Positions 1 to 57,095 of a stretch of 57,095 nt of DNA are shown piece by piece. Both the position numbers and the translations under genes were made by a program. The notes under the pieces were generated by a model that worked only from the letters and a program-made list of their open reading frames with translations, ran no database searches and was not told where the DNA came from. Source of the DNA: a virus (taxonomy: Duplodnaviria > Caudoviricetes); the IMG/VR virus record IMGVR_UViG_3300032247_001291, positions 1 through 57,095 of that record. One strand, 5' to 3'. How positions within the stretch are numbered: position 1 is the first letter of the stretch; each line of letters starts with the position of its first letter.

Positions 1-1377
1 TGTTGCTGTATTTGCAAGAGCATCTGCTGTTTGAATTGCAGCTGTTGCACTTTGTTGTGCAGCTAATAAATTTGCTTGTGCAATATCATAAGCTGCTTGA
101 GCTGAATCAATTACAGATTGTTGTGCATTTACAGCATGAATAGCATCTTGCCATGCTTGATATGCAGCATCTCTTATTGCTAGTTGTGTGTCATAGGCAG
201 TCTTTACTGATGTTAAATTAGTTTTTGCTGTATCTACTGCAGCAACTTTAATTGGATCTGGAGTTTTTATTACTGATGAAAATGCTTCTGCTTGTGGAAA
301 TGTAAAGTATCCAGTTCCATCAGCACGAATAATTACCCAACCTAAATTAACTACTGCCCCACCGCCGTGTTCATAATACCAAAGAACAAAATCTTGTTGC
401 TTATCTACAGATACATTAAAATCTTGACTATAATTGCTGTATCTTGGACTTTGATCACGCCAATTGTCAACTGCTAATACACCGTCAATATATAATTTTG
501 TTCCATCATCTGCGTATGTATTGTATCTAACAATGACTGCTTCTTCTGGCAAAGTAATTGTTCCTTCAAATTTAACTACAACATTATCTACCCGACCCGA
601 ATTAAGAACTTGGCCACTTCCCCAGTTATTAGAAAGTGATGCAACTGTAGTTGTTGAAAGTGGAACTGTTTGAGAGTTGGGAAGAGGTGATGCAGTGCTA
701 CCACTATAGGCATATGTGGTTGCAGATATACCATTAGTAGTGGTAGTAATTGGTTCACTATTTGCCAAATTTGTTATAGCATTTGATACAGCAGTTTCTG
801 CTGTTGATACATTACTTGTTGCTGTTCCAAGGTTTGAATTTTCTGTATAAAATCCTGATTGCGTGTTTGTTTGAGTTGTTTGAAGATCAGGAAGCTTTGA
901 TGTTTCAGCTGTTAAAATTACTTGATTTGTTTGAACAGTTGCTGTTTGAGTTTCTACATTTGCTTGTGCTATCACCGCAACAGATATGGCAGTTTGAGCA
1001 GATTGAATTGCTGTATTTGCTAGTTGAATTACTGCAGTTGCTGACTCTACTGCTGTTTTTATTGGTTCTTGTGTAATAGCAATTGACACGGCTGTTGATG
1101 TATCTGTATTTGGCACATTAGACTGAATGGTTTGAATAATAGCATTGCCCTGAACTTGTGATGCATTATTTAAAGTGCCTTGAGCTGTTGTAACTTTATT
1201 TTCTACTGACTGAATTGTTATTGATGAAGTTACTGTAGATGTGTCTGAAATAGGGGTTGGGGATAAAGGAGTTACTTGAACTGTAACCTCATCAGCATAA
1301 GATTTATTAGATGAAAAAAGTAATAATAGCCCTGTAAAGAACAAGGCTACTATTAAAAATTTAATCTTTCTGGTCAC
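1..1377 (-). CDS. Secreted PA14-domain, Thr/Ala/Gln-rich protein (3' end runs off the window)
   Basis: Absent from the ORF track because there is no stop in the window. Read by hand: GGAGG RBS, GTG start at 1377, signal peptide MTRKIKFLIVALFFTGLLLLFSSNKSYA, PA14-like motif YADDGTKLYIDGVLAVDNW...WYYEHGGGA, then coiled-coil-like Ala/Gln sequence. Confidence 0.75.
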   Translation of the reverse strand, partial: MTRKIKFLIVALFFTGLLLLFSSNKSYADEVTVQVTPLSPTPISDTSTVTSSITIQSVENKVTTAQGTLNNASQVQGNAIIQTIQSNVPNTDTSTAVSIAITQEPIKTAVESATAVIQLANTAIQSAQTAISVAVIAQANVETQTATVQTNQVILTAETSKLPDLQTTQTNTQSGFYTENSNLGTATSNVSTAETAVSNAITNLANSEPITTTTNGISATTYAYSGSTASPLPNSQTVPLSTTTVASLSNNWGSGQVLNSGRVDNVVVKFEGTITLPEEAVIVRYNTYADDGTKLYIDGVLAVDNWRDQSPRYSNYSQDFNVSVDKQQDFVLWYYEHGGGAVVNLGWVIIRADGTGYFTFPQAEAFSSVIKTPDPIKVAAVDTAKTNLTSVKTAYDTQLAIRDAAYQAWQDAIHAVNAQQSVIDSAQAAYDIAQANLLAAQQSATAAIQTADALANTAT

Positions 1378-20165: not shown

Positions 20166-20867
20166 TTATTTATTTAATTGTTTTAAAGGGTCTGTCCAGA
20201 ACATAGATATTGTATATCTTATGCCTTCTGTGACTGCTTTTACGCCATGCAAAGTATTTTCATCCCCTTGAAATGTAACCAACATGCCTTTTTTTGGTTT
20301 AATTGTAAAATTTTCATATTGTGGAAACCAAAGCTCTCCCCCGACATAATCATCATTAAGATAGATAAGTGTTGAATAATGTTTTGTTTGAAATCTGCCT
20401 TCAAAACTCTTTAACCAATCTTTTGGAATATTATTTTTAGCAAGCATTTCATAATCGTGATCCCTTTCGTTTTCCAAAAAATAATCTAAATGGGGGGCTT
20501 GCTCTCTTCCTATTCGCCATCTATTAATTAAATATTGTTCTTTTAATAAATTAGTTACATTAAATTTTTCTTCAGTATGAGGTTTCATTCTTTTTGCTAA
20601 ATTTTCAAAATATTCTTTATCAAGTTTATATCTTTCATAAAATTCTAAATTTGTAAAATTAATACACATGCCGTCCCATTGTGTTATAGATGGCCACAAA
20701 GCTGGGTCAACATCTTTTTCTTTTGGATAATTAATATCAAAATCCAAACTCCAAAGATTTTCTGAAAAAGATTTAACACTAAGAATTTTATCGCACTCTT
20801 CATCTGTTAAAAAATTATTTATTATTCTTATATTTGGTTTTTTTAAATCAATTATATTATTGCTCAT
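20166..20867 (-). CDS. 2OG-Fe(II) oxygenase, prolyl-4-hydroxylase-like
   Basis: HLD...YLNDDYVGGELWF...HGV...RYT (HxD, H, R). Confidence 0.88.
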   Translation of the reverse strand: MSNNIIDLKKPNIRIINNFLTDEECDKILSVKSFSENLWSLDFDINYPKEKDVDPALWPSITQWDGMCINFTNLEFYERYKLDKEYFENLAKRMKPHTEEKFNVTNLLKEQYLINRWRIGREQAPHLDYFLENERDHDYEMLAKNNIPKDWLKSFEGRFQTKHYSTLIYLNDDYVGGELWFPQYENFTIKPKKGMLVTFQGDENTLHGVKAVTEGIRYTISMFWTDPLKQLNK

Positions 20868-22941
20868 GATCTTCTACATTTTCTTTCAAACGATAATCAG
20901 ACCAATAAGGTGAAAAGTATGGTGGTGGGAAATATGGTGGACCTACTGGTGGAGTTGGTGGAGTTGGTGGACCTACTGGTGGAGTTGGTGGAGTTGGTGG
21001 ACCTACTGGTGGAGTTGGTGGAGTTGATGCAGTAACAGTAAAGCTAGTAGTTCCAGTTGCATTTGGAGAAATTCCATTTGAAACTGTCCATGCTAATCTA
21101 TAGCCATATGTTTGTAATTGAGTTGGTGTAAAAGTTGAACCCGTTCCATCTTGAACCCAACTGAAAAATGAAGATTGGTGTTGCCAAGAGTAAGTATATG
21201 TAAATGTTGATGGAGTTCCAGACCATCCAGAAGGTACTGCAGAAAATTGTGTACCAACAGCACCAGATGCAGGAGAAACACTTACAGATCCGCCAGTTGG
21301 AGCTGCTGATACTACGGTCCATCTTGCATAAAAAAGAGCATTGGCTGTTACGGTCCATGATCCACCAGCATTTAAACCATAAGTATAATCACCAGAAGGT
21401 GTGTCACGCCATTGCAAAAAAGTGTAACCATCACGTGTTGGGGTTGGGGCAGTAACCGTACTCCCAGATGCTGCTGTAGAGCTTGTTGGAGTTACGGTTC
21501 CTCCATTTGCATTCCACGTTATAGTATAATTTGGTATCCATCTTGCATAAAAAAGTATATTTCCAGTTACTGTCCATGAGCTTCCTGCATTCAACCCATA
21601 AGTATAATCTCCAGACGGGGTATCTCTCCATTGTAAGAAAGTGTAACCATCACGTGTTGGTGTCGGAGCAGTAACCGTACTTCCAGATGCTACCGTAGAA
21701 CTAGATGGTGTTACAGATCCTCCATTTGCATTCCATGTTACGGTATAATTTGGGGTAGCTGTTCCCGTTACAATAAATAAATATGGAACGTATCCATACA
21801 AAGTGTAATATACATAAACAGTAACAGAATTTCCTGGAGACATACCAGTAACCGATACCGCACCTGTAGTAGAATTTACCGTAACTGTTCCCGTTCCTGT
21901 TTGAGTATAATAAGAATAAGATCCACCTGTTGGATTTGGAGCAGTAGAAATTGTTGCATTAAATCCATTAGACGATGATGTTGGTGTTCCATATGCTGGA
22001 TTTGTTGTTAAAACTGAATTTATTGGTCCATATTTTGCATAGGCTGAAGGGCTTGCACTGCCATATTGATATACATTCCAATCAGACTTACTATTATATT
22101 CATAGTTTACTGCGTAATAATAATTACCAACAATGGCGGGATTTAAAGTTAAAGATGCATTAACTGTATACAAAGTTCCATCATTTGATATAGAAGGAGT
22201 TGTTGATGAAACATAAGTTGCATTTGCAATAATTTGATCTACACTTGTATATGTACCAACAGTGCTTCTATACCATAAAATAGCACTTCTTGTATTATCT
22301 GGAAGATAATCTGCTGTCCCGTTCCATTTATTTACATATGCAAGAGTTGTTACCGAAGTCGCTGCATTGTATGAATAATTTATTGTAGGAGTATAAGCAG
22401 ATTGAGTAGGTATATATTTTCTACAAACAAAATATCTTGATCCATTACCGTCTGTGGTTTCAATTCCAGTAACACCAGTTGTTGTAGTATTAGCATCTAT
22501 TTCGCCATAGATATAATAACCATCATATATTGCAGCTGAAAGCGGGATAGTTGCATATTGGGTTAAAGTACCAGAAGCAGCATTATATTGTGATGCTGTT
22601 GTATTTATATTTCCATTACTTGTTGTATATACATAATATGAATATGACGATATGGTGTATCCATTTGATAACCACGTTCCTTTTTGTAAATATACCGTGC
22701 TGCCTGTATCTAATGTGAGTCCAGCTATGGGAGATGTTCCAGTTGTAGTTGAAGCAAAATATGGAAACGTAGTAGTATATGGTCCAGATTTAGGAAAAAA
22801 TTGTATCCAACCAGCAGCAGTTCTTACAAAAGCAGATTTTGCTTTAACCCAAGTGCTAATAGCAGTTTTTACAGATATACTTACTACTTTAGGCCAAGTA
22901 CTTGAACTTGAAGTACCACTAGTTTTTACGAATAATGGCAT
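20857..22941 (-). CDS. Tail fibre/adhesin with two InlB B-repeat (Listeria-Bacteroides)-like domains, Pro-rich tail and truncated S74 motif
   Basis: Last gene of the tail module; Thr/Ser/Tyr-rich; 2x YTVTWNANGG...PTRDGYTFLQW...FYARW; PPTPPTPPVG repeats; ends WSDYRLKENVEDHEQ. Confidence 0.75.
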   Translation of the reverse strand: MPLFVKTSGTSSSSTWPKVVSISVKTAISTWVKAKSAFVRTAAGWIQFFPKSGPYTTTFPYFASTTTGTSPIAGLTLDTGSTVYLQKGTWLSNGYTISSYSYYVYTTSNGNINTTASQYNAASGTLTQYATIPLSAAIYDGYYIYGEIDANTTTTGVTGIETTDGNGSRYFVCRKYIPTQSAYTPTINYSYNAATSVTTLAYVNKWNGTADYLPDNTRSAILWYRSTVGTYTSVDQIIANATYVSSTTPSISNDGTLYTVNASLTLNPAIVGNYYYAVNYEYNSKSDWNVYQYGSASPSAYAKYGPINSVLTTNPAYGTPTSSSNGFNATISTAPNPTGGSYSYYTQTGTGTVTVNSTTGAVSVTGMSPGNSVTVYVYYTLYGYVPYLFIVTGTATPNYTVTWNANGGSVTPSSSTVASGSTVTAPTPTRDGYTFLQWRDTPSGDYTYGLNAGSSWTVTGNILFYARWIPNYTITWNANGGTVTPTSSTAASGSTVTAPTPTRDGYTFLQWRDTPSGDYTYGLNAGGSWTVTANALFYARWTVVSAAPTGGSVSVSPASGAVGTQFSAVPSGWSGTPSTFTYTYSWQHQSSFFSWVQDGTGSTFTPTQLQTYGYRLAWTVSNGISPNATGTTSFTVTASTPPTPPVGPPTPPTPPVGPPTPPTPPVGPPYFPPPYFSPYWSDYRLKENVEDHEQ
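20860..20938. repeat. 79-bp exact direct repeat, copy 1 (copy 2 at 56925-57003)
   Basis: Base-by-base identical: ttgctcatgatcttctacattttctttcaaacgataatcagaccaataaggtgaaaagtatggtggtgggaaatatggt. Confidence 0.95.
20936..21026. repeat. 30-bp tandem repeat x3 encoding PPTPPTPPVG
   Basis: acctactggtggagttggtggagttggtgg units. Confidence 0.9.
21319..21756. repeat. 219-bp imperfect tandem duplication (two 73-aa domains)
   Basis: ccatcttgcataaaaaag recurs at 21319 and 21538; the protein repeats are nearly identical. Confidence 0.85.
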
Positions 22942-47046: not shown

Positions 47047-47221
47047 CTTTTATCCTTTTCCATTTTCCATATAAATTAGGTTTTTCTGAACCAACATATT
47101 CTTGACCAGTTTCTAAATCAATCAATAACCATTTTGCTGGGCATTTTGTATGGATTGTAAGATCTACCGCTTCGTTAAAATCTTCTACTTCTGATCCATC
47201 TAGGAGCTTTCTCTTCCCCAT
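47009..47221 (-). CDS. Hypothetical protein
   Basis: TKCPAKWLLIDLETGQEY; packed ORF. Confidence 0.6.
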   Translation of the reverse strand: MGKRKLLDGSEVEDFNEAVDLTIHTKCPAKWLLIDLETGQEYVGSEKPNLYGKWKRIKDAIFDKKNNVWD

Positions 47222-47439
47222 TTTACCCTATTCCAAATACGCTCATGTACATAATATAAAAATATTTTAGTAAATATTTCCATGCCAGAAATAGCTAAAG
47301 CAAGTTTAGCTTTTCCAGTAATCAAATAAGAAAGAATAAAGGTATCAATTGTTCCAGTTGTTCTCCATGTTACCGCTTTTACAAATGACCTGCTATGTGA
47401 TACCCACATAATTGGTTTTATATCTACAGGCGTAAACAT
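47200..47439 (-). CDS. DUF2061-family membrane protein
   Basis: RSFVKAVTWRTTGT...LYYVHERIW signature; start shortened to avoid overlap with cysC. Confidence 0.8.
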   Translation of the reverse strand: MFTPVDIKPIMWVSHSRSFVKAVTWRTTGTIDTFILSYLITGKAKLALAISGMEIFTKIFLYYVHERIWNRVKWGRESS

Positions 47440-47470
47440 AATTCTTTCTTCTGCTTCTGATATTTTATTA

Positions 47471-48229
47471 TCAAATACCCATCTGCTTGCGCTTTTCAGT
47501 TGCTGAAATAGCTTCAATGTCTGCTCCCAACGATACCTGTTCAATTTTATATCCTACATCTCGCCCATATACAATATTAGTAATATTAGGCATTCTAACC
47601 ACCATTGCATCTTTCATAAAATCATCTTCTGCAATATAGCTTTTAACTTGATCAAATGTTAATGGATCTTTAGGGCTGGTATTGTAAGTATTTCTAACGC
47701 CCAGCATAACTTGATCCGTACGCTCCCCTGCTTCTTTATACAAAGCATGGTGACCTTCATGCCAGGGTTGATATCTTCCCAACATTAATGTTGTTGGAGC
47801 TGACCAATCGTGTAAATTAAATAATTTAATAAAATGTGTTACACGAACAAAAACATCTTCTACAAAATCTACATACTCTATGTCAAAATATAAAGGTTCA
47901 ATAAACATTTTATTGGTATCTTCAAAACGACCTTCTTTAATCGTATTCATCCAAACCAATATATCTGGCTTACCAAAAGATTTTCTTGTTTCTGGTGTTG
48001 GGCAAACAAAATCTACAACAACATCAAGTCCTTGTTTAGACAACATTTTTGCCATCTCGCCCATACGCCTGGCATGCTCTATGCGATCTTCAATTGCAAA
48101 CCCAAGATCAGAATTTATTGTTGAGCGCACATAATCTGCATTTAAATGTACAGCATTAATTCTATCAGCTAAAGCGGTTGCAAAAGTAGTTTTGCCACTT
48201 CCTGGCAAACCAATGATTTGGATTATCAT
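47471..48229 (-). CDS. cysC: Adenylylsulfate (APS) kinase fused to HxGH nucleotidyltransferase
   Basis: GLPGSGKTT, NADYVR...DLGF..EDRIEHARR, DFVCP; C-half GRYQPWHEGH...ISATEKR. Confidence 0.8.
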   Translation of the reverse strand: MIIQIIGLPGSGKTTFATALADRINAVHLNADYVRSTINSDLGFAIEDRIEHARRMGEMAKMLSKQGLDVVVDFVCPTPETRKSFGKPDILVWMNTIKEGRFEDTNKMFIEPLYFDIEYVDFVEDVFVRVTHFIKLFNLHDWSAPTTLMLGRYQPWHEGHHALYKEAGERTDQVMLGVRNTYNTSPKDPLTFDQVKSYIAEDDFMKDAMVVRMPNITNIVYGRDVGYKIEQVSLGADIEAISATEKRKQMGI

Positions 48230-49738: not shown

Positions 49739-50332
49739 TCACGCTTTATACCAAAAGCCTGGGGACATGTATTTTACCCCATTCTTTATCGGCATAGATT
49801 CGTGATAATAAGGTTCTGTTGATGGGAAAACCATAATACTCCCAGCTTCTGGTTTAATTTTTATACCTTGTTTATTAAAATAAAGTTCTCCACCTTCATA
49901 ATCGTCATTTAAATATGCAACAACAGAAATGACTGGAGACCTGTCATCTCCATACGAGTCTACGTGTGGTCCCATTTCTTTTCCAACAAAATATTTACTT
50001 ATAGAAAGTGGCATTAATTTACCAATATCAAAATTAAACATTTCTGAATAATGTTTTGAAACAACAACAATTGCATTGTTAATTGAATCATAAATTAATT
50101 TAGTTTCATTTGATGAATTATCATAATTGTTAAAATTCATCATTTTTTGTTTACCAAACGTATAACTTTTATCACTTGAAATCCAGTTATTCCATTTTGA
50201 AACTACTGATAAATTTAAATCATCTAAATCAGTTTTTTCAATTAAATTTAATAAATCAGAAACATTTTCTATAGCATTTTTATAATATATTATTTTGCCA
50301 TATTGCTCAACTTCAAGCATTTTTATTTCCAT
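49739..50332 (-). CDS. 2OG-Fe(II) oxygenase, P4H-like
   Basis: HVD...YLNDDYEGGELYF...HES...KY. Confidence 0.88.
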   Translation of the reverse strand: MEIKMLEVEQYGKIIYYKNAIENVSDLLNLIEKTDLDDLNLSVVSKWNNWISSDKSYTFGKQKMMNFNNYDNSSNETKLIYDSINNAIVVVSKHYSEMFNFDIGKLMPLSISKYFVGKEMGPHVDSYGDDRSPVISVVAYLNDDYEGGELYFNKQGIKIKPEAGSIMVFPSTEPYYHESMPIKNGVKYMSPGFWYKA

Positions 50333-51044
50333 TTTTCCATTCTAGCTGTTGTTTTTCTTGTTCAATTCTAATTAATTTTTCTTCATCTTTCCATTTTTTT
50401 ATTATCTCTTCACTATATTCTATGTCTGCATAATCCCAAAATGAAACCATGGTATATCGTGTTCCTTCTAATATTTCTTTAACGCCATGAATATTTTCAA
50501 CTCCGCCACAAAACACATAATATGAAAATGCATTTGGTTTAAATTCTATTCCATGATCTGGAAAATAAAGTTGACCACCAGAATAATTGCCGTTTAAATA
50601 TAAAATTCCAACATATTTATTTATTTCAAATGCATTTGGATTTCCTTCAAAATCAGAATTGTCTGAATGTGGATTGGCAAAACCACCAACTTCCCATTTT
50701 TGAGCATGAGATGTATTTGGACGAACTTTTTTATCAAATACTAGTTCTACTGCTTCTTGAAATTTTTTCTTTATATCAAGAAAAAAGTTTTCTTTAAGTC
50801 CAAATTGTAAAAAGTTGGGATCATTATCTTGAAGACCCATACCCTTTGATCCATAAAAAGCAATTGGACCCCATTCTTTTTCACAAAATTCAAAATATTT
50901 TATCATCGCATTTGCAGTTTTTTCTGATACAAAATTAGGAATTTCAACAATTCTATTATCTGTAACCCCTAGGCTACCTTTATTATTCTTTTCATCTTTT
51001 AAATAAATAAAATTATTTTTATCTAAGTTTTCTATTATTGTCAT
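50313..51044 (-). CDS. 2OG-Fe(II) oxygenase, P4H-like
   Basis: HSD...YLNGNYSGGQLYF...HGV...RY. Confidence 0.88.
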   Translation of the reverse strand: MTIIENLDKNNFIYLKDEKNNKGSLGVTDNRIVEIPNFVSEKTANAMIKYFEFCEKEWGPIAFYGSKGMGLQDNDPNFLQFGLKENFFLDIKKKFQEAVELVFDKKVRPNTSHAQKWEVGGFANPHSDNSDFEGNPNAFEINKYVGILYLNGNYSGGQLYFPDHGIEFKPNAFSYYVFCGGVENIHGVKEILEGTRYTMVSFWDYADIEYSEEIIKKWKDEEKLIRIEQEKQQLEWKNGNKNA

Positions 51045-51852
51045 TTAACCCTTCTCTCCTTCTTACTGGAACAATTGTCTGTTCATATATCTGTTTCCAT
51101 TTTTCTAAACCATGTTCTTTTTCTAGCTCTAACCATTCTTGTGAAGCTTCATTTGGAAATAAATAAAAATATCTTATAAAATACTTATCATTTTTAGTAA
51201 CTTCTTTAACTGCATGAAAATAAATATCATTATCTGACAATAACTTAGGGTGACCTGAAGGGAAGACCATCACGTCCCCAGCTTTTGGTTTATATGGCAT
51301 TCTACCTTCATCATGCATCATTTTAAATACAACATCTCCACCTTCATAATCGTCATTAAGATACATGGTGCATGTTAAAGCAAATTTTGGCATTGGGGAA
51401 TCAAATTCCATCCATTGATAATCAGTATGATATGTCATTGATAAATCTCCAGCTATATCATTTTTATGCACTACAACATTTTGATCATATCTGCAGTATG
51501 AGGGGCCCATGGTTAACCAATCTTCACCAATTTCAACATTGTGTTCATTTAAAAAATGCTTTGTTGATATTTTAAAAGCATTTAATACTTGTTCATTAAA
51601 AGCATTTTCTTCTAAATACCTTTCATCATTTTCTAATTCAACATCATGAAAATGCAAAGGCACTCCAGATCCAGGACTCATATATGTGCCAAACTCTGCC
51701 CATTTACCCCAATTTGAAAATATAAAACTTGAGCTTGGATTAAGCTCACTTTCTTTTAACAATTCAACCAGTCTTTCTGGATTTTTAATTAAATTTTTAT
51801 AAACATAAATATTTTTATCAAACTCATAGTATTCTATATTTGCACTTGTCAT
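51019..51852 (-). CDS. 2OG-Fe(II) oxygenase, P4H-like
   Basis: HTD...YLNDDYEGG...HAV...KY. Confidence 0.88.
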   Translation of the reverse strand: MTSANIEYYEFDKNIYVYKNLIKNPERLVELLKESELNPSSSFIFSNWGKWAEFGTYMSPGSGVPLHFHDVELENDERYLEENAFNEQVLNAFKISTKHFLNEHNVEIGEDWLTMGPSYCRYDQNVVVHKNDIAGDLSMTYHTDYQWMEFDSPMPKFALTCTMYLNDDYEGGDVVFKMMHDEGRMPYKPKAGDVMVFPSGHPKLLSDNDIYFHAVKEVTKNDKYFIRYFYLFPNEASQEWLELEKEHGLEKWKQIYEQTIVPVRRREGLNDNNRKLR

Positions 51853-51855
51853 TTT

Positions 51856-52536
51856 TTAACTTTCTACATTTAACTTTAATATAGTCCAAAAAAAAGGACA
51901 AGTATATCTAATTCCTGATTTTATTTCTGTTACTCCATGAATATAATTTCTATCTCCTGGGAAAAAGTATGCTGACCCTCTTTTAGGTTTAAATTTAATA
52001 TTTTGTAAAGGAAAATAAAGCTCTCCTCCTTCATAATCATCGTTTAAATAAAATAAACTAGATAAATCATAATATGGAAAATCATTAGGAACTCCAACAT
52101 TTGGCTCTTCGTGAAGTTCTTTATCTGCATGCGGGTTTTGTAATTGTCCTGGAAGCCATCTTACTATTGTTTCAGTTGTAGGTTTTATTTCCACATTAAA
52201 ATGTTTTTCAACTATTGGTTGTAATTTTTTAAATAAACTTTCTATTACTGGTCCTATTTTAGGATCATTTAAATCTAAAGTTCCCCTAGTGGCTACACGA
52301 TCTTTCCAATATTCAGAATCATAAATTACTGTACCGTCTTCATTTTTATGAGTTTCTGTTACATCCCAAATAGTTATAGATTTTGCAGCATTTTCTAAAA
52401 AATTAATTTCTTCATCTGTCATAAAATTTTCTAAAGCAATTATATTTTCAGGACCATTTCCAAAATATCCAGAAGGTGTTATAGAAAATAAATTTGTATC
52501 TTTTGTACTATTTGTTACATTATCATTTCTTATCAT
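51856..52536 (-). CDS. 2OG-Fe(II) oxygenase, P4H-like
   Basis: HAD...YLNDDYEGGELYF...HGV...RY. Confidence 0.88.
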   Translation of the reverse strand: MIRNDNVTNSTKDTNLFSITPSGYFGNGPENIIALENFMTDEEINFLENAAKSITIWDVTETHKNEDGTVIYDSEYWKDRVATRGTLDLNDPKIGPVIESLFKKLQPIVEKHFNVEIKPTTETIVRWLPGQLQNPHADKELHEEPNVGVPNDFPYYDLSSLFYLNDDYEGGELYFPLQNIKFKPKRGSAYFFPGDRNYIHGVTEIKSGIRYTCPFFWTILKLNVES

Positions 52537-53261
52537 TTATATTCTCTTTTTTCCCATACTTCATTTTTATAAACTCCCCCATCTGGCGTTCTATATTTTT
52601 TTGAATTATCCATATTTTTTTGATAAATGTTTTCTGGTAATTCAAACTCAATTTTTGATTCCCAATTTTCTTTTTTAAATGGTAATATTTGCATATATGG
52701 AGTCCCAGCTTTAATTATACCCTGAAAACCTTTAGCTATATAAAAAGGGATAAGGCCTGGTAAATTAACTTTATCATTATCAATTATTCCAAATGGCATA
52801 GTAAATGGAAGATCATATCTATTCATTGGATGTGTATATAATGCCGTATAGCCTTCTGGCAAAACTGTTGCCCAGTCTGGATACCAAGCAAAATGATCTT
52901 CATAATGACCCATAGGAGCTTGAAATCCTGGCATTGGTGGGCGCTCAGTACAAAAATGTTTTAAATTATCATCATAAATCTTTACACAAATTTTGCCTTT
53001 ATCATCCAAATAAAATTCAATATCACATGGTAATCTTAAAACATAGCCAGTTATTAAAACATCAAATATAGATGGACAAGCTTTCCAAGTAAGCATTAAA
53101 CTTCCATCTTGTTGCCTATAAGCATCACCATTTGGCATTTTATGATATCTTTCAGCTTTTCTATACCAATCTGGCAAATGTTTTATTGTTGGTTCTGGGG
53201 TTGTGGTGCTGTCCTTATTAAGACTGTATGAGTTACTTATAAATTTAATAATATTATTCAT
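52533..53261 (-). CDS. Hypothetical beta-rich protein (DUF6065-like)
   Basis: PDWY...KACP...GY...P.GY...HP.N...GIID.D...GTPYMQILP. Confidence 0.55.
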   Translation of the reverse strand: MNNIIKFISNSYSLNKDSTTTPEPTIKHLPDWYRKAERYHKMPNGDAYRQQDGSLMLTWKACPSIFDVLITGYVLRLPCDIEFYLDDKGKICVKIYDDNLKHFCTERPPMPGFQAPMGHYEDHFAWYPDWATVLPEGYTALYTHPMNRYDLPFTMPFGIIDNDKVNLPGLIPFYIAKGFQGIIKAGTPYMQILPFKKENWESKIEFELPENIYQKNMDNSKKYRTPDGGVYKNEVWEKREYK

Positions 53262-53970
53262 TTATTACTCCAGTATGATCTTTAACTTGCAATTTAAATG
53301 ATTTTATTTCATGCTCTCCAATTTTTTCATTTTTATAATTAACTGCATCTCTATAAAAATTAGTAAATTTTCCAGACATGCTTATTTCCATATATTTTTT
53401 AGCATGTTCTTTTTGATCTTTATAATATGAATCAGGAAAATTTGCTTTATATAAATTTACTTCAAAATCTTTAATTGACTGTAAAGATAATGGAAGCAAA
53501 GCTATAATTGGAGTATTTGCTGGTATTACGATTTCTACATTTGGTCTTGTAATTTTCCAAGCAGCTGGAAATACTTGATCATAAAAAGAAGTACTTATAA
53601 CGGTTGTAAAAGCTTGTGCTCCATCTATAAAACCATTAGGCACTGGCATATGAACCATGCTTACGCCTTTTGGCGTTTTTATAATCAAACCAGTATTAAA
53701 ACTAATTGTTGCATTACCTCTATTAGCACTACAATAATTGTTACCTTTTAAAATTTTTACATGAGAATCTGAAGAATCAGAAATTCCATCCCAGATAAAA
53801 GATATTTCTTCTGGAAAAGATATTCCCCAACCCATACAGTTAGATAAACTTACTGGAAAACATTTATATGCGTGAGCATCATTTGTTTTATCCATCCATT
53901 CTCGTGTTACTTCAAGTGGAGCTATGTTTGCAGATTTTTGATGCTCTTTAAAAACATCTATTGATATCAA
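53254..53970 (-). CDS. DUF6065-like protein
   Basis: REWMD...HAYKCFPVSLSN..GW...PVPN...WKITRPN. Confidence 0.6.
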   Translation of the reverse strand: MISIDVFKEHQKSANIAPLEVTREWMDKTNDAHAYKCFPVSLSNCMGWGISFPEEISFIWDGISDSSDSHVKILKGNNYCSANRGNATISFNTGLIIKTPKGVSMVHMPVPNGFIDGAQAFTTVISTSFYDQVFPAAWKITRPNVEIVIPANTPIIALLPLSLQSIKDFEVNLYKANFPDSYYKDQKEHAKKYMEISMSGKFTNFYRDAVNYKNEKIGEHEIKSFKLQVKDHTGVINE

Positions 53971-54626
53971 TTTCCAGAATCCTCATACATTTCTCTTGTA
54001 TGGAATTTTGAACTATAATCTGTCATTGTAACAATTGAATATTTTAATCCAGAAATAACTTTTTTTGCTTGGTGGGGATACATATAATTAGATGGGAAAA
54101 TGTACAAATCTCCAGCTTTTGGTTTTATATTTAAATCTTGCAATCTAAAATAAAGTTCTCCGCCTTCATAATCATCATTTGGATAGCCAACCAAAGAAAC
54201 CGTACAGTTATAAGAATAGCCATGATCATGATGTTCCATAAAATGTTGATTTGGACCATATTTAATAAAATTAAAAGCTTCCCAATACTTCAATTCCATA
54301 ATTCTAAATTTTTCACAATAATCATCTAATGCTGGTTTTTGCCTATCATATACATCTTGCCACAATTGTTGTAAATTTTTTGAAACTTCTGATGTATCCA
54401 ATTCAATATCAGATTTTTTAAATTTAAAATCATAACAATCTCGATATTCTGGCATTTTTTCTCTATAGCCAACCATAGCTTCTTGCCATTGGTATTGTGG
54501 ATTTTTTGTTTTATCTAAATTAAATTCTAATCTATTTATAATATCAAGATCTTTTGGCAATGCGTCACGGTATACTAAAATTCCATTTCCAAAATCTTCA
54601 ACTGAAGACCAAGTTTGTATAGACAT
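53967..54626 (-). CDS. 2OG-Fe(II) oxygenase, P4H-like
   Basis: HHD...YPNDDYEGGELYF...FPSNYMYPH...KYS. Confidence 0.88.
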   Translation of the reverse strand: MSIQTWSSVEDFGNGILVYRDALPKDLDIINRLEFNLDKTKNPQYQWQEAMVGYREKMPEYRDCYDFKFKKSDIELDTSEVSKNLQQLWQDVYDRQKPALDDYCEKFRIMELKYWEAFNFIKYGPNQHFMEHHDHGYSYNCTVSLVGYPNDDYEGGELYFRLQDLNIKPKAGDLYIFPSNYMYPHQAKKVISGLKYSIVTMTDYSSKFHTREMYEDSGN

Positions 54627-54652
54627 ATTATCTCTTTCTACTAGTTGACTTT

Positions 54653-54706
54653 ATTATACCATAAAGTATTTATTAAAAGTGATAATAATATAATAAATGA
54701 TATAAT
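54653..54706. promoter_or_regulatory. Divergent extended -10 promoters
   Basis: TGGTATAAT on minus (54653-54661) and TGATATAAT on plus (54698-54706). Confidence 0.6.
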
Positions 54707-54712
54707 TAATTT

Positions 54713-55396
54713 ATGGACAATAGACTAAAAAAAATACACACCCACCCTAATTTTGAAATGCTTGAAGAAAGAATTTGGGTTATTCATGATTTTATTAATC
54801 CTGAATTTAGAGAATATTATTTAAATATTGCAAACAATGCTTTAGAAGAAGAATGGTGGAAAAGAGAGCCAGGATGGTGGAATGGAAAATTTTTAGTATT
54901 ACCTCAAGATAACAAAATTCCAAATATGATTGTTGATGAAATTAAAAAATGGATAGATGACCCAGATTATTGGATATGGGGTCAACCCGCTTCTGTGCAT
55001 AGAATGAAAGAAGGCGAATCTATGTTTTTACATGCTGATAATCCAAATGAAAAAAGTGGTTTAAATAATTGGGTTGATTTAAGTTTTGTTTTATATCACA
55101 ATGATTTTAATGGTGGAGAAATTATATACCCAGAATTAGGTTTTGAATATCATCCAAGAGCTGGGGATTTACTTATGCATCCAGGATCTCAAAGCCATAA
55201 GCACGGAACAAAACCAGTTCTTCCTGGTCCCATTAGATACAATTCAACAATGTGGGCTTATGACAATAGAGCAAAAAAACTTCACGATGATCATAAAGTT
55301 TTTGAAGGAAGCAAAGCAAGAAATCAAGTATATCTTATACAAAATAATATGCAATCAGAAGATATATATAGTATTGGTGAGGGTAAAAAAAATTAA
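54713..55396 (+). CDS. 2OG-Fe(II) oxygenase, P4H-like (only credible plus-strand gene)
   Basis: HAD...YHNDFNGGEIIY...HGT...RY. Confidence 0.88.
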   Translation: MDNRLKKIHTHPNFEMLEERIWVIHDFINPEFREYYLNIANNALEEEWWKREPGWWNGKFLVLPQDNKIPNMIVDEIKKWIDDPDYWIWGQPASVHRMKEGESMFLHADNPNEKSGLNNWVDLSFVLYHNDFNGGEIIYPELGFEYHPRAGDLLMHPGSQSHKHGTKPVLPGPIRYNSTMWAYDNRAKKLHDDHKVFEGSKARNQVYLIQNNMQSEDIYSIGEGKKN

Positions 55397-55908: not shown

Positions 55909-56631
55909 TTATCCTTCCATTTTATAAAACAAAGAATTAGTATTAAAAACTTCTGCATCAAATTTTGCCCAATTTAAAATTATTTCTTTTTCTTTTTCAT
56001 TTAAACTTTTATATATTCTTGTAGAATCTGGATTCCAGTAATTGGATGCTTTTTGCATAGGATGGTTTATTGTTTGAATTGGTATATTTAAATCAGACAT
56101 AATTTTATTTAAAACTTTTTTTATATTTTTTTCTTTTAAATCTTCTGATCTTATTAATAAAGATACTTCATTTAAACGATTAAAAATTATTTCTTTAGAT
56201 AATATGCAATTTTTAATAGAAGAGCTTGTAACATAACTACTTTTATCCATATTTGAATTTGAAACTAAAAAATTTTTTGATTGGATATTAGCATAAATAT
56301 TTTTATTTTTTTCCATCCAATCAAACATTTTATACTTATCATAATTTAAATCTCCAACTGGAACCAGTCTTCTTGTGTCATCTCCAAGCATACTATAGTG
56401 AGAATAAGTACTTACAGTATGTGCTACTGGATCTCTAAATAAACTTGTTACATAAGTTTTATCTGTTATAAAATTAGCCCAATGCTGATGAGCAACATAA
56501 GAATCTCTGTCATAAAAATTTTTAATGTTATTTTCTTTTAAAATTTTATCTAAAGGAACAACTATATTTTGAGTAAAAAATCTACCAGCAGTTTTAATAA
56601 TGTGTAAAAAATAAAAACTATCTTTGTTCAA
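55909..56631 (-). CDS. Sulfotransferase-family protein
   Basis: 5'-PSB-like FLHIIKTAGR and 3'-PB-like FRDPVAHTVS; C-terminal D.EVF. Confidence 0.7.
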   Translation of the reverse strand: MNKDSFYFLHIIKTAGRFFTQNIVVPLDKILKENNIKNFYDRDSYVAHQHWANFITDKTYVTSLFRDPVAHTVSTYSHYSMLGDDTRRLVPVGDLNYDKYKMFDWMEKNKNIYANIQSKNFLVSNSNMDKSSYVTSSSIKNCILSKEIIFNRLNEVSLLIRSEDLKEKNIKKVLNKIMSDLNIPIQTINHPMQKASNYWNPDSTRIYKSLNEKEKEIILNWAKFDAEVFNTNSLFYKMEG

Positions 56632-56932
56632 TTTTTTTTATTTTTTCTTCCAAAACTTCAATTTTTTTTAAAGTTAATTGAAGCACTTCTACAAGATATG
56701 GTACTAAAACTGCTGGTTTAATTTGTTGATATTCTGGATTTCCATTTTTATCCATACCATCTTTATTCCCTGTTACAGCGGTTGGCACTAATTCTTGAAG
56801 TTCATGAGCAATAAAGCCAAGATGTTTTTCTTTTTTTTCATCAAATACATAATTATATTCTTTTACTTTAAGATTTTTAATAACATAAGTTGAATCTATT
56901 ATATTATTCATCTTTCTTATTATCTTGCTCAT
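56618..56932 (-). CDS. Stand-alone peptidase S74 / intramolecular chaperone body lacking the SDxRLK N-terminus
   Basis: IKNLKVKEYNY...GFIAHELQELVPTAVTG.KD...YQQI...LVPYLV...coiled coil; alternative start at 56911. Confidence 0.85.
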   Translation of the reverse strand: MSKIIRKMNNIIDSTYVIKNLKVKEYNYVFDEKKEKHLGFIAHELQELVPTAVTGNKDGMDKNGNPEYQQIKPAVLVPYLVEVLQLTLKKIEVLEEKIKKIEQR

Positions 56933-57095
56933 GATCTTCTACATTTTCTTTCAAACGATAATCAGACCAATAAGGTGAAAAGTATGGTGGTGGGAAATAT
57001 GGTCCAAAGCTAGGTGGGAAGAACGGTGGGAAGAACGGTGGGAAGAACGGTGGGAAGAACGGTGGGAAGAACGGTGGGAAGAACGGTGGGAAGAA
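56904..57095 (-). CDS. C-terminus of a Pro/Phe-repeat protein (5' part outside the window)
   Basis: Hand-translated (FFPP)7-SFGPYFPPPYFSPYWSDYRLKENVEDHEQDNKKDE-stop. Confidence 0.85.
   Translation of the reverse strand, partial: FFPPFFPPFFPPFFPPFFPPFFPPFFPPSFGPYFPPPYFSPYWSDYRLKENVEDHEQDNKKDE
56925..57003. repeat. 79-bp exact direct repeat, copy 2
   Basis: Identical to 20860-20938. Confidence 0.95.
57013..57095. repeat. 12-bp tandem repeat GGTGGGAAGAAC, at least 7 copies
   Basis: Perfect units up to the window edge; encodes FFPP on the minus strand. Confidence 0.95.

What the first reader, a model, noticed from the sequence alone, without database searches (positions are those of the whole stretch)
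56618..57095. Split peptidase S74 chaperone: cleavage motif on the client protein, chaperone body as a separate gene
Seen: the FFPP-repeat ORF ends W-SDYRLKENVE-DHEQDNKKDE-stop. An overlapping +1-frame ORF then supplies NIIDSTYVIKNLKVKEYNY...GFIAHELQ...coiled coil. Joining ENVE to NIID restores the usual S74 spacing, and the halves are separated by a 3n+1 insert (28-31 nt) containing ATGs and the upstream stop. Known: S74 intramolecular chaperones (endosialidase, T5 pb1, MYRF) are normally in cis and self-cleave via the Ser...Lys dyad of SDxRLK. Inference: the domain is split into a short tag plus a trans-acting partner, or is rejoined by recoding.
Basis: partly seen in the sequence, partly recalled or inferred. 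Interest (0 to 1): 0.85.

Follow-up and report, generated by a model that had tools for sequence, protein, structure and literature searches.

The report
Split tail-fibre chaperone domain in phage
In this marine phage a chaperone domain that normally sits at the end of tail-fibre proteins and cuts itself off is divided between two genes: a ten-residue tag left on the fibres and a separate small protein that probably works on them from outside.

Summary
On the minus strand a 5'-open, proline-rich fibre ORF ends with SDYRLKENVE plus 10 more residues. An overlapping +1-frame ORF (56618-56932, 97-104 aa) encodes the rest of a Peptidase_S74 domain (Pfam 32.7 bits, profile 13-57 of 58). It is not an assembly error: contigs from three runs carry the junction with no indel.

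A 694-aa fibre (20857-22941) ends with the same tag inside a 79-nt identical module, but a 2OG-Fe(II) oxygenase gene follows it.

The split is rare: 126 of 127 distinct S74 domains in 158 related loci are fused and in frame. It is nevertheless conserved. Three free-standing 93-94 aa relatives (50-64% identity) start within three residues of the same point, and a fibre-1 orthologue also ends tag-only.

A 3 tag + 3 body model passes its controls (0.79 against 0.02), but that pass may only reflect likeness to solved fused domains.

Best reading (about 0.55): an intramolecular chaperone has become a separately encoded, translationally coupled, trans-acting one, recruited through a short C-terminal tag and possibly shared by two fibres. 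Recoding is unlikely. Binding and cleavage are untested. This is a new variant of a known kind.

The parts
56904..57095 (-). 3' end of fibre-2 ORF, open at the contig end; the last 63 codons plus the stop. It ends with the tag and a 10-residue acidic/basic tail.
57013..57095 (-). Perfect 12-nt tandem repeat (6.9 copies) encoding FFPP units. The contig ends inside it.
   Evidence: Logan contigs break or diverge here
56937..56966 (-). Tag SDYRLKENVE: the first 10 residues of an S74 domain, carrying the Ser and the Lys five residues later.
   Evidence: (HMM positions 1-14)
56906..56936 (-). 31-nt (3n+1) spacer between the tag and the body's NIID. It holds both candidate ATGs of the body gene and the first base of the fibre's TAA.
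   Evidence: (31 nt skipped)
56618..56932 (-). Free-standing S74 chaperone body: 104 aa from ATG 56932, or 97 aa from ATG 56911, which overlaps the fibre stop by 8 nt.
   Evidence: Pfam PF13884 32.7 bits; custom HMM 101 bits; AlphaFold model pLDDT 90.5, best PDB match MyRF ICA domain 7dc3, TM 0.74
56925..57003 (-). 79-nt module identical to 20860-20938. It runs from the YFPPPYFSPYW stretch through the tag to the first 8 nt of the downstream gene.
   Evidence: 86 nt, 98%; columns 38-116 identical
20857..22941 (-). Fibre 1: 694 aa with Listeria-Bacteroides repeat domains and three TPPTPPVGPP units. It ends with the same tag followed by DHEQ-stop.
20872..20901 (-). Second copy of the tag SDYRLKENVE, at the C-terminus of fibre 1.
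20166..20867 (-). 2OG-Fe(II) oxygenase gene (233 aa). Its start overlaps the fibre-1 stop, and its first seven codons (MSNNIID) match the body gene's start apart from an 18-nt indel.
   Evidence: PF13640, 39.1 bits

Best explanation
A Peptidase_S74 C-terminal 'intramolecular chaperone' domain has been split at the gene level, at the boundary between its N-terminal loop and its globular, coiled-coil body.

The fibre genes keep only the loop: SDYRLKENVE with the Ser...Lys pair, followed by a short acidic tail and a stop. The remaining ~94 residues form a separate small protein. Its start codon overlaps the fibre's stop codon, so the two are probably made together by translational coupling (inferred).

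The most likely mechanism, also inferred, is as follows. The body trimerises through its C-terminal helix. It docks the three tags of nascent fibre chains in the groove that the loop occupies in fused domains, and so brings the chains into register as the fused domain does. This is an intermolecular version of the S74 chaperone. Because a second, different fibre carries the identical tag and has no body gene next to it, one body may serve both fibres.

Whether the Ser-Lys pair still cuts the tag off at W|S is open.

Shown here: the split itself, its reality in independent contigs, the completeness of tag plus body, the fold of the body, the rarity of the split, and its conservation in relatives. 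Inferred: binding, trimerisation, coupling, sharing and cleavage.
For: 1. Tag plus body make one complete domain. The Pfam hit covers profile positions 13-57 of 58 on the body only. With the custom HMM the join scores 120.9 bits over positions 1-103, against 101.2 for the body and 10.6 for the tag ORF. The spacing is restored to the mode found in 63 of 68 relatives.

2. The split is real. Logan contigs of 7,069, 11,230 and 9,322 nt from three runs of one study cover 56300 to 56954/56958/56969 with no indel. The third is a variant strain with 3 substitutions, one of them in the body (56651). By my hand reading it is a silent TTG>TTA change.

3. The body is intact and conserved. All 15 columns that are at least 90% conserved in 68 fused relatives are kept. 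The model has pLDDT 90.5, and its top PDB matches are the MyRF ICA domain 7dc3 (E 4.8e-5, TM 0.74), then 3gud, 3gw6 and 4uw8.

4. The split is conserved. The closest relatives of the body are free-standing proteins that start within 3 residues of the same point: P0002 and P0003 (94 aa, 64% identity) and P0155 (93 aa, 50%). These proteins and the window's body share derived residues at columns that are nearly invariant in fused forms: D to K/R (fused: D in 64 of 68) and E to L/W (fused: E in 65 of 68).

5. The tag is conserved on a diverged orthologue of fibre 1. P0154 (795 aa, 62% identity overall) ends tag-only. Its SDYRLKEN is 8 of 8 identical, while the residues on both sides differ and there is a 3-residue indel just upstream.

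6. Two fibres in the window carry the tag, but a six-frame Pfam search finds only one S74 body.

7. Model of 3 bodies + 3 tag peptides. ipSAE was 0.79, 0.80 and 0.79 against a best control of 0.02. The tool's mark was reached by 58 of 80 solved complexes and 2 of 110 mismatched pairs. The runs share at least 76% of contacts, and the partner's pLDDT is at least 57. Contacts fall on tag-chain residues 39-55, which are the tag and the five residues before it.

8. In T5 pb1 the equivalent residues after the scissile Ser form a loop that lies over the rest of the chaperone (passages of PMC4690869). The split therefore falls at a structural boundary.
Against: - There is no experiment. Binding, trimerisation and cleavage are all inferred.
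- The complex passes with halves of a domain whose fused form is solved (7dc3, 3gw6, 4uw8). The pass may therefore be recall of that fold rather than evidence that these two chains bind. The job also used my own alignment and multiple copies, unlike the tool's calibration.
- The two tags in the window lie in a 79-nt identical module. They are one recent recombination product, not two independent observations.
- I could not see the DNA around P0002, P0003, P0155 or P0154, so I do not know that a tag-bearing gene precedes those bodies or what follows P0154. All scans for them found nothing.
- Conservation of the tag could partly reflect nucleotide-level constraint from the overlapping start region of the next gene.
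- The sequence before the Ser here is proline- and aromatic-rich, unlike the Gly/Thr/Ser-rich stretch before the Ser in the fused relatives. The T5 paper assigns essential roles in cleavage to an Arg and an Asp of the fibre part. No charged residue lies in the 15 residues between the repeats and the Ser in the window's two fibres.
- The record is estimated to be 53% complete, so further bodies or tags may exist.
Confidence: 0.55

Rival explanations
1. Decoupled remnant. A 3n+1 insertion truncated the fibre. The tag is an inert leftover, kept because it overlaps the start region of the next gene and spreads by recombination. The free-standing body has some other role: it may chaperone or cap a different protein without using the tag, or it may be a small structural trimer.
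For: The tag module is 79 nt identical in two genes, which indicates recent recombination rather than long-term independent selection. At copy 1 the same junction drives an unrelated oxygenase gene, so the junction moves as a cassette whatever follows it. Free-standing S74-like bodies with no tag logic exist elsewhere. L009 has a 124-aa body with a degenerate motif behind a protein that carries its own complete S74 domain. P0114 starts even further into the domain.
Against: SDYRLKEN is 8 of 8 identical in the fibre-1 orthologue P0154 while its flanks diverge. The body starts exactly where the tag ends, both in the window and in three relatives. The model places the tag on the body with high confidence against its controls.
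Confidence: 0.28
2. Recent pseudogenisation. The split is a disabling mutation in this lineage, and the body ORF is decaying.
For: 126 of 127 distinct S74 domains in 158 related loci are fused and in frame. Only 2 of the 150 best cluster representatives have the domain at the very N-terminus.
Against: The body ORF is intact and keeps all 15 conserved family columns. Free-standing relatives at 50-64% identity start at the same point, so the split is older than that divergence. A fibre orthologue is also tag-only. The exact 97-aa protein is recorded on 4 contigs.
Confidence: 0.08
3. Recoding. A +1 shift at the fibre's stop codon, or a hop over the spacer, rejoins tag and body in one polypeptide.
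For: Reading +1 at the stop gives an open frame of 158 residues that still scores 106.4 bits over HMM positions 1-103. The spacer length is 3n+1.
Against: The junction has no stable RNA structure (z -0.36; 62 of 200 shuffles fold at least as well). No homopolymer run suited to slippage is visible. By my own reasoning, the tRNA on the last sense codon would re-pair poorly in the +1 frame. The +1 product carries a 10-residue insert, which moves the conserved Leu from position 22 to 32. At copy 1 the same shift would fuse a fibre to an oxygenase. The relatives' bodies are called as separate proteins with their own Met.
Confidence: 0.05
4. Assembly or sequencing artefact at a repeat.
For: The junction lies next to a 79-nt intra-genome repeat and a 12-nt tandem array, and contigs break there. 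What I laid were contigs, not raw reads, all from one study, and one run may be the source of the record.
Against: The spacer and both ATGs (56906-56936) lie inside contigs of 7-11 kb from three runs, with no indel. The frame-shifting core is also present at copy 1. The 97-aa product is on 4 contigs and the 694-aa fibre on 2. A 31-nt spacer is not a typical base-calling error.
Confidence: 0.03

Closest known systems
C-terminal intramolecular chaperone domains of phage fibres and spikes (Pfam Peptidase_S74: K1F endosialidase, PDB 3gw6; GA-1 neck appendage, 3gud; T5 pb1, 4uw8)
   Same: The family signature is the same, and so is the fold of the body. The same SDxRLK start sits directly after the mature fibre part. 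The body ends in the same kind of C-terminal helix that forms the trimeric coiled coil in T5 (model).
   Different: Here the first ~10 residues and the remaining ~94 lie on two polypeptides encoded by overlapping genes. 126 of 127 distinct related domains are single-chain. The domain is the short ~103-residue type; T5's has 133 residues with long hairpin 'tentacles'. The client sequence before the Ser is proline-rich.
MyRF ICA domain (PDB 7dc3)
   Same: It is the best structural and sequence match of the body among solved structures: Foldseek E 4.8e-5, TM 0.74, and profile E 8.5e-7.
   Different: It is a eukaryotic membrane-bound transcription factor with the domain in cis. It has no phage context.
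Separately encoded tail-fibre assembly chaperones placed directly downstream of fibre genes. PMC4576200 states this as a general arrangement (passage). Tfa and gp38-type proteins are examples I recall from memory.
   Same: A small gene lies immediately downstream of a fibre gene and is expected to act on the fibre's C-terminus. This is what the locus would work like.
   Different: The protein here is an S74 body, not a member of those families. Pfam gave no other hit even at E up to 10. The fibre also keeps a piece of the chaperone's own domain as the presumed docking site.
Free-standing S74-like proteins elsewhere: L009 2827-3201 (same as P0110) and P0114
   Same: They are small proteins made of an S74 body without the Ser-Lys motif.
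   Different: In L009 the preceding 633-aa protein has its own complete S74 domain, and the free-standing copy keeps a degenerate full-length domain (HMM from position 4). It is an extra copy, not a domain split between neighbours. The context of P0114 is unknown.

Membership tests
Peptidase_S74 (PF13884) intramolecular chaperone | Sequence match to the family profile above the curated cut-off | tested here: met
   The body scores 32.7 bits against a cut-off of 22, but over profile positions 13-57 of 58 only. A six-frame search gives 33.9 bits. The tag ORF alone has no hit.
Peptidase_S74 (PF13884) intramolecular chaperone | The Ser...Lys motif (SDxRLK) opens the domain on the same polypeptide as the body | tested here: not met
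   The motif is on the fibre ORF. The body is on the next ORF in the +1 frame, 31 nt apart. All 68 fused relatives start with SD.R.K in frame.
Peptidase_S74 (PF13884) intramolecular chaperone | The domain forms the C-terminus of a fibre or spike protein (in cis) | tested here: not met
   The body is a free-standing protein of 97-104 aa. 126 of 127 distinct related domains are in cis.
Peptidase_S74 (PF13884) intramolecular chaperone | Fold: a small alpha/beta part followed by a long C-terminal helix, as in solved chaperone domains | tested here: met
   The model has pLDDT 90.5 with helix 66-95. Foldseek matches are 7dc3 (E 4.8e-5, TM 0.74), 3gud (E 0.03), 3gw6 and 4uw8, the last two weak.
Peptidase_S74 (PF13884) intramolecular chaperone | Trimer that holds three client chains in register | tested here: inconclusive
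   The 3+3 model scores ipSAE 0.79 against a best control of 0.02. The mark was reached by 58 of 80 solved and 2 of 110 mismatched pairs. At least 76% of contacts are shared between runs, and the partner's pLDDT is at least 57. This is a model only and may be recall of solved fused domains.
Peptidase_S74 (PF13884) intramolecular chaperone | Autoproteolytic release at the Ser | not testable with these tools
   Ser and Lys are present in both tags. The fibre-side Arg and Asp that the T5 paper invokes have no visible counterpart in the 15 residues between the repeats and the Ser.
Separately encoded tail-fibre assembly chaperones (works-like comparison) | Own gene directly downstream of the fibre gene | tested here: met
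   The start codons at 56932 and 56911 overlap the fibre ORF, which stops at 56904-56906. No terminator-like site lies between them.
Separately encoded tail-fibre assembly chaperones (works-like comparison) | Sequence membership in a known tail-fibre-assembly family | tested here: not met
   Pfam at E up to 10 returns only Peptidase_S74 for the body.
Programmed +1 frameshift or bypass site | Slippery or re-pairing codon plus a stimulatory element, giving a sensible fused product | tested here: not met
   No structure beyond shuffles (z -0.36). The fused product would carry a 10-residue insert. The same junction precedes an oxygenase at copy 1. The judgement on codon re-pairing is my inference.

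The most novel reading that the evidence does not exclude
The ten-residue SDYRLKENVE segment has become a portable recruitment tag. A single free-standing S74 trimer folds several unrelated receptor-binding proteins that carry it, and the 79-nt 'proline-rich end + tag + coupled start' module moves between fibre genes by recombination. This would uncouple receptor-binding diversity from the chaperone. The proline-rich stalks just before the tag (FFPP and TPPTPPVGPP repeats) might in addition be substrates of the phage's six or more prolyl-hydroxylase-like oxygenases.
Probability: 0.25. Interest if true: 0.75.

Novelty: new variant of a known kind. Interest (0 to 1): 0.6.

Why it matters
S74 domains are the textbook case of a chaperone that acts only on its own chain and then removes itself. 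A natural, conserved split would show that the catalytic loop and the trimerising body can be separated.

That would give a direct experimental handle on what each part contributes: registration by the body and cleavage chemistry by the loop. It would also link two known ways of folding phage fibres, the cleaved C-terminal domain and the separate downstream chaperone.

If the short tag is enough to recruit the body, it could serve as a small trimerisation and folding tag for engineered fibres.

Five full-text searches found no description of a split S74 domain. Most subscription-journal papers are not held and supplements were closed, so this is not proof that none exists.

Tried and rejected
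**Relatives with the same junction.** Every scan for them found nothing:
- an exact 24-nt pattern in viral contigs;
- two degenerate back-translations of the tag plus its continuation in viral contigs;
- the three-protein alignment of free-standing bodies in metagenome contigs (226 pattern matches, none confirmed);
- a degenerate pattern for the clade-specific GFIAHELQELVPTAV in metagenome contigs;
- P0154 in viral contigs.

P0155 in viral contigs returned only fused relatives at 58% identity or less, plus L009-type loci. I therefore never saw the DNA context of P0002, P0003, P0155 or P0154.

**The body's own N-terminus.** From the first ATG it reads S-x-x-x-R-K-x-N, the same Ser-to-Lys spacing as the motif. 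The custom HMM did not align it (coverage starts at position 9), and the relatives lack it, so I treat it as coincidence.

**Recoding.** See the rivals: no structure. No terminator-like site or notable promoter-like site separates the two ORFs.

**Literature on trans-complementation of S74 domains.** Searches found nothing relevant. The 2009 JBC paper on endosialidase F is not held. I recall, but could not check, that the early endosialidase papers discussed whether the domain works in trans.

**Complex prediction.** It passed, but I weight it lightly because fused forms are solved.

**Reads.** Only Logan contigs were laid, not raw reads. Coverage dips and contig breaks at 56954-57003 and in the FFPP array reflect the repeats, and I do not interpret them.
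Full report
**What is there.** The window is a whole IMG/VR record: 57,095 bp, linear, estimated 53% complete. Nearly all of its genes are on the minus strand. At its right end the minus strand carries a 5'-open ORF (56904-57095). It encodes seven perfect FFPP units (12-nt repeat, 6.9 copies), a short proline- and aromatic-rich stretch, and then W-SDYRLKENVE followed by ten more residues and TAA. A second ORF in the +1 frame starts inside it, at ATG 56932 or ATG 56911, and runs to 56618 (104 or 97 aa).

**The two pieces are one S74 domain.**
- Pfam Peptidase_S74 matches the second ORF at 32.7 bits (cut-off 22), over profile positions 13-57 of 58. The opening Ser...Lys segment is missing from it, and the fibre ORF alone gives no hit.
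- I built an HMM from 68 distinct full domains (from the Ser to the C-terminus, 104 positions) taken from 79 fused relatives in IMG/VR. The body alone scores 101.2 bits over positions 9-103. The tag ORF scores 10.6 bits over positions 1-14. A by-reference join that skips exactly 31 nt scores 120.9 bits over positions 1-103.
- The join places the conserved Leu at position 22 from the Ser, as in 63 of 68 relatives. SDYRLKEN is the commonest start, in 38 of 68.
- An AlphaFold model of the 97-aa body (71-row alignment) has pLDDT 90.5. It shows a small alpha/beta part and a helix over residues 66-95.
- Its best PDB matches are the MyRF ICA domain 7dc3 (E 4.8e-5, TM 0.74), then the phage chaperone domains 3gud, 3gw6 and 4uw8. 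A profile search of PDB sequences agrees.

**It is not an artefact.** Logan contigs from three runs of one study were laid on the region. One run may be the source of the record, so at most two are independent. They cover 56300 to 56954, 56958 and 56969 in records of 7,069, 11,230 and 9,322 nt, with no inserted or missing letters. The spacer and both ATGs lie well inside them. The third run is a variant strain with three substitutions. The one inside the body gene (56651) is, by my reading, a silent third-position Leu change. The contigs stop inside the repeat described next, where depth roughly doubles. These were contigs, not raw reads.

- A DNA self-search found 86 nt of the junction repeated at 20855-20938 with 98% identity. 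Alignment shows 79 consecutive identical bases, 56925-57003 against 20860-20938.
- The second copy is the 3' end of a 694-aa protein (20857-22941). It has Listeria-Bacteroides repeat domains and lies at the end of the tail module, after the tape-measure protein, a minor tail protein and a 1,186-aa protein.
- This protein has three perfect TPPTPPVGPP units, then the same YFPPPYFSPYW-SDYRLKENVE, then DHEQ and a stop.
- The overlapping downstream gene there is not an S74 body. It is a 2OG-Fe(II) oxygenase (PF13640, 39.1 bits). Its first codons (MSNNIID) nevertheless match the body gene's start once an 18-nt indel is allowed, with 12 of 13 following bases identical (my reading).
- ID is also the start of the relatives' bodies. 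So the oxygenase gene appears to have inherited the body gene's start region. The module 'proline-rich end + tag + coupled start' has moved as a unit.
- A six-frame Pfam search finds only one S74 body in the record. A motif scan finds only these two tags in open reading frames.

**How unusual the split is, and whether it is conserved.**
- Of the 80 best IMG/VR relatives of the body (521 confirmed, 80 kept), 79 have the motif in frame in the same ORF.
- Over all 158 fetched loci, 126 of 127 distinct S74 domains are single-chain. The exception, L009, is an extra, degenerate, free-standing copy behind a protein that has its own complete domain.
- In an exhaustive search of 1.84 billion cluster representatives, 15,321 proteins matched at E up to 0.001. 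Among the 150 best, only the window's own cluster and P0114 have the domain at the very N-terminus.
- The closest relatives of the body are nevertheless free-standing. P0002 and P0003 (94 aa, 64% identity, from two different source collections) and P0155 (93 aa, 50%, on two contigs) start within three residues of the window's second ATG.
- All four free-standing proteins (the window's body and these three relatives) keep the 15 columns that are at least 90% conserved in the 68 fused sequences. They share derived residues at columns that are nearly invariant in fused forms: D to K/R (fused: D in 64 of 68), E to L/W (fused: E in 65 of 68) and P to V/L (fused: P in 62 of 68).
- On the client side, the only relative of fibre 1 found (2 proteins among 8,000 scored candidates, one of them the window's own) is P0154. 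It is an orthologue with a roughly 90% identical N-terminal 300 residues and a different middle. It ends with FFPP-type repeats and a tag-only end. SDYRLKEN is identical, while the residues on both sides differ and there is a three-residue indel just upstream.
- I could not see the DNA around any of these proteins.

**Mechanism.**
- In T5 pb1, the residues after the scissile Ser form a loop that winds over the rest of the chaperone. The Ser and a Lys five residues later are the proposed catalytic pair, helped by an Arg and an Asp of the fibre part (passages of PMC4690869).
- The split here therefore falls between that loop and the globular body. Both catalytic residues stay with the fibre.
- A model of three bodies (with alignment) and three 35-residue fibre ends gave ipSAE 0.79, 0.80 and 0.79 against 0.02 for the best of three controls. 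The tool's mark was reached by 58 of 80 solved complexes and 2 of 110 mismatched pairs. The runs share at least 76% of contacts, and the partner's pLDDT is at least 57. Confident contacts fall on the tag and the five residues before it.
- Fused S74 structures are solved, so this pass may only show likeness. The job also differs from the calibration.
- The body's second ATG overlaps the fibre's stop by 8 nt, and no terminator-like site intervenes. This fits coupled, near-equimolar synthesis, which is an inference.
- My best reading is a trans-acting, tag-recruited version of the S74 chaperone, possibly serving both fibres. I put it at about 0.55.
- Whether the tag is still cut off is open. The 15 residues between the repeats and the Ser contain no charged residue that could play the fibre-side roles described for T5.

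**Rivals.**
- An inert leftover tag with an independently acting body is the main alternative (about 0.28).
- Recent pseudogenisation is unlikely, because the body is conserved in free-standing relatives (about 0.08).
- Recoding is unlikely (about 0.05). There is no structure (z -0.36), the fused product would carry a 10-residue insert, and the same junction precedes an oxygenase elsewhere.
- Artefact is about 0.03.

**Context.** The record is a siphovirus-like phage with portal, protease, major head protein, adaptor, a 1,819-aa tape-measure protein and a large DNA polymerase. GC content is 26-40% and there are no tRNA genes. The nearest named phages for the body are Pelagibacter and Synechococcus phages, at 47% identity or less.

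**Limits.**
- Supplements were closed, and I opened none.
- Papers were seen only as search listings and found passages.

Noticed in passing
window 49739-55396 and 20166-20867: Six genes match 2OG-FeII_Oxy_3 (PF13640, the prolyl-4-hydroxylase-like group) above the cut-off, and a seventh (50313-51044) falls just below it (24.8 against 27 bits). Both tag-bearing fibres have perfect proline-rich repeats (FFPP x7; TPPTPPVGPP x3), and one oxygenase gene directly follows fibre 1. Proline hydroxylation of the fibres is an untested idea. A full-text search for it found nothing.
   Followed up: partly
window 47200-48229 and 55909-56631: An APS-kinase-like gene (PF01583, 60.2 bits) and a DUF2061 membrane-protein gene sit beside the oxygenase island. 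The 240-aa protein just downstream of the S74 body has no Pfam or PHROG hit. This may be a sulfation or modification module.
   Followed up: no
L009 939-3201: A cysteine-rich 633-aa protein with a complete C-terminal S74 domain is followed by a free-standing 124-aa S74-like protein. Its Ser-Lys motif is degenerate. Another fibre-like gene comes next.
   Followed up: partly
proteins P0004, P0007: Some relatives carry three or four separate S74-like stretches in one protein (531 and 1,059 aa).
   Followed up: no
window 56910-56938: A weak 12-nt periodicity (2.4 copies, 82% matches) spans the 18 nt that copy 2 has and copy 1 lacks. The extra six codons may have arisen by slippage.
   Followed up: no
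body residues 16, 65, 67, 79 (numbering of the 97-aa form): The four free-standing bodies (the window's own and three relatives) share substitutions at columns that are nearly invariant in 68 fused domains, including a charge reversal, D to K/R. In the complex model, residues 61-68 touch the tag.
   Followed up: partly
window 57013-57095 and beyond: The contig ends inside the FFPP array. Logan contigs leave the array for the same upstream sequence at 57089 in two runs and at 57053 in a third. The repeat number may vary between samples, or it may be collapsed by assembly.
   Followed up: no
window 1-1377: The 3'-open ORF at the left end of the record carries a PA14 domain (28.7 bits).
   Followed up: no
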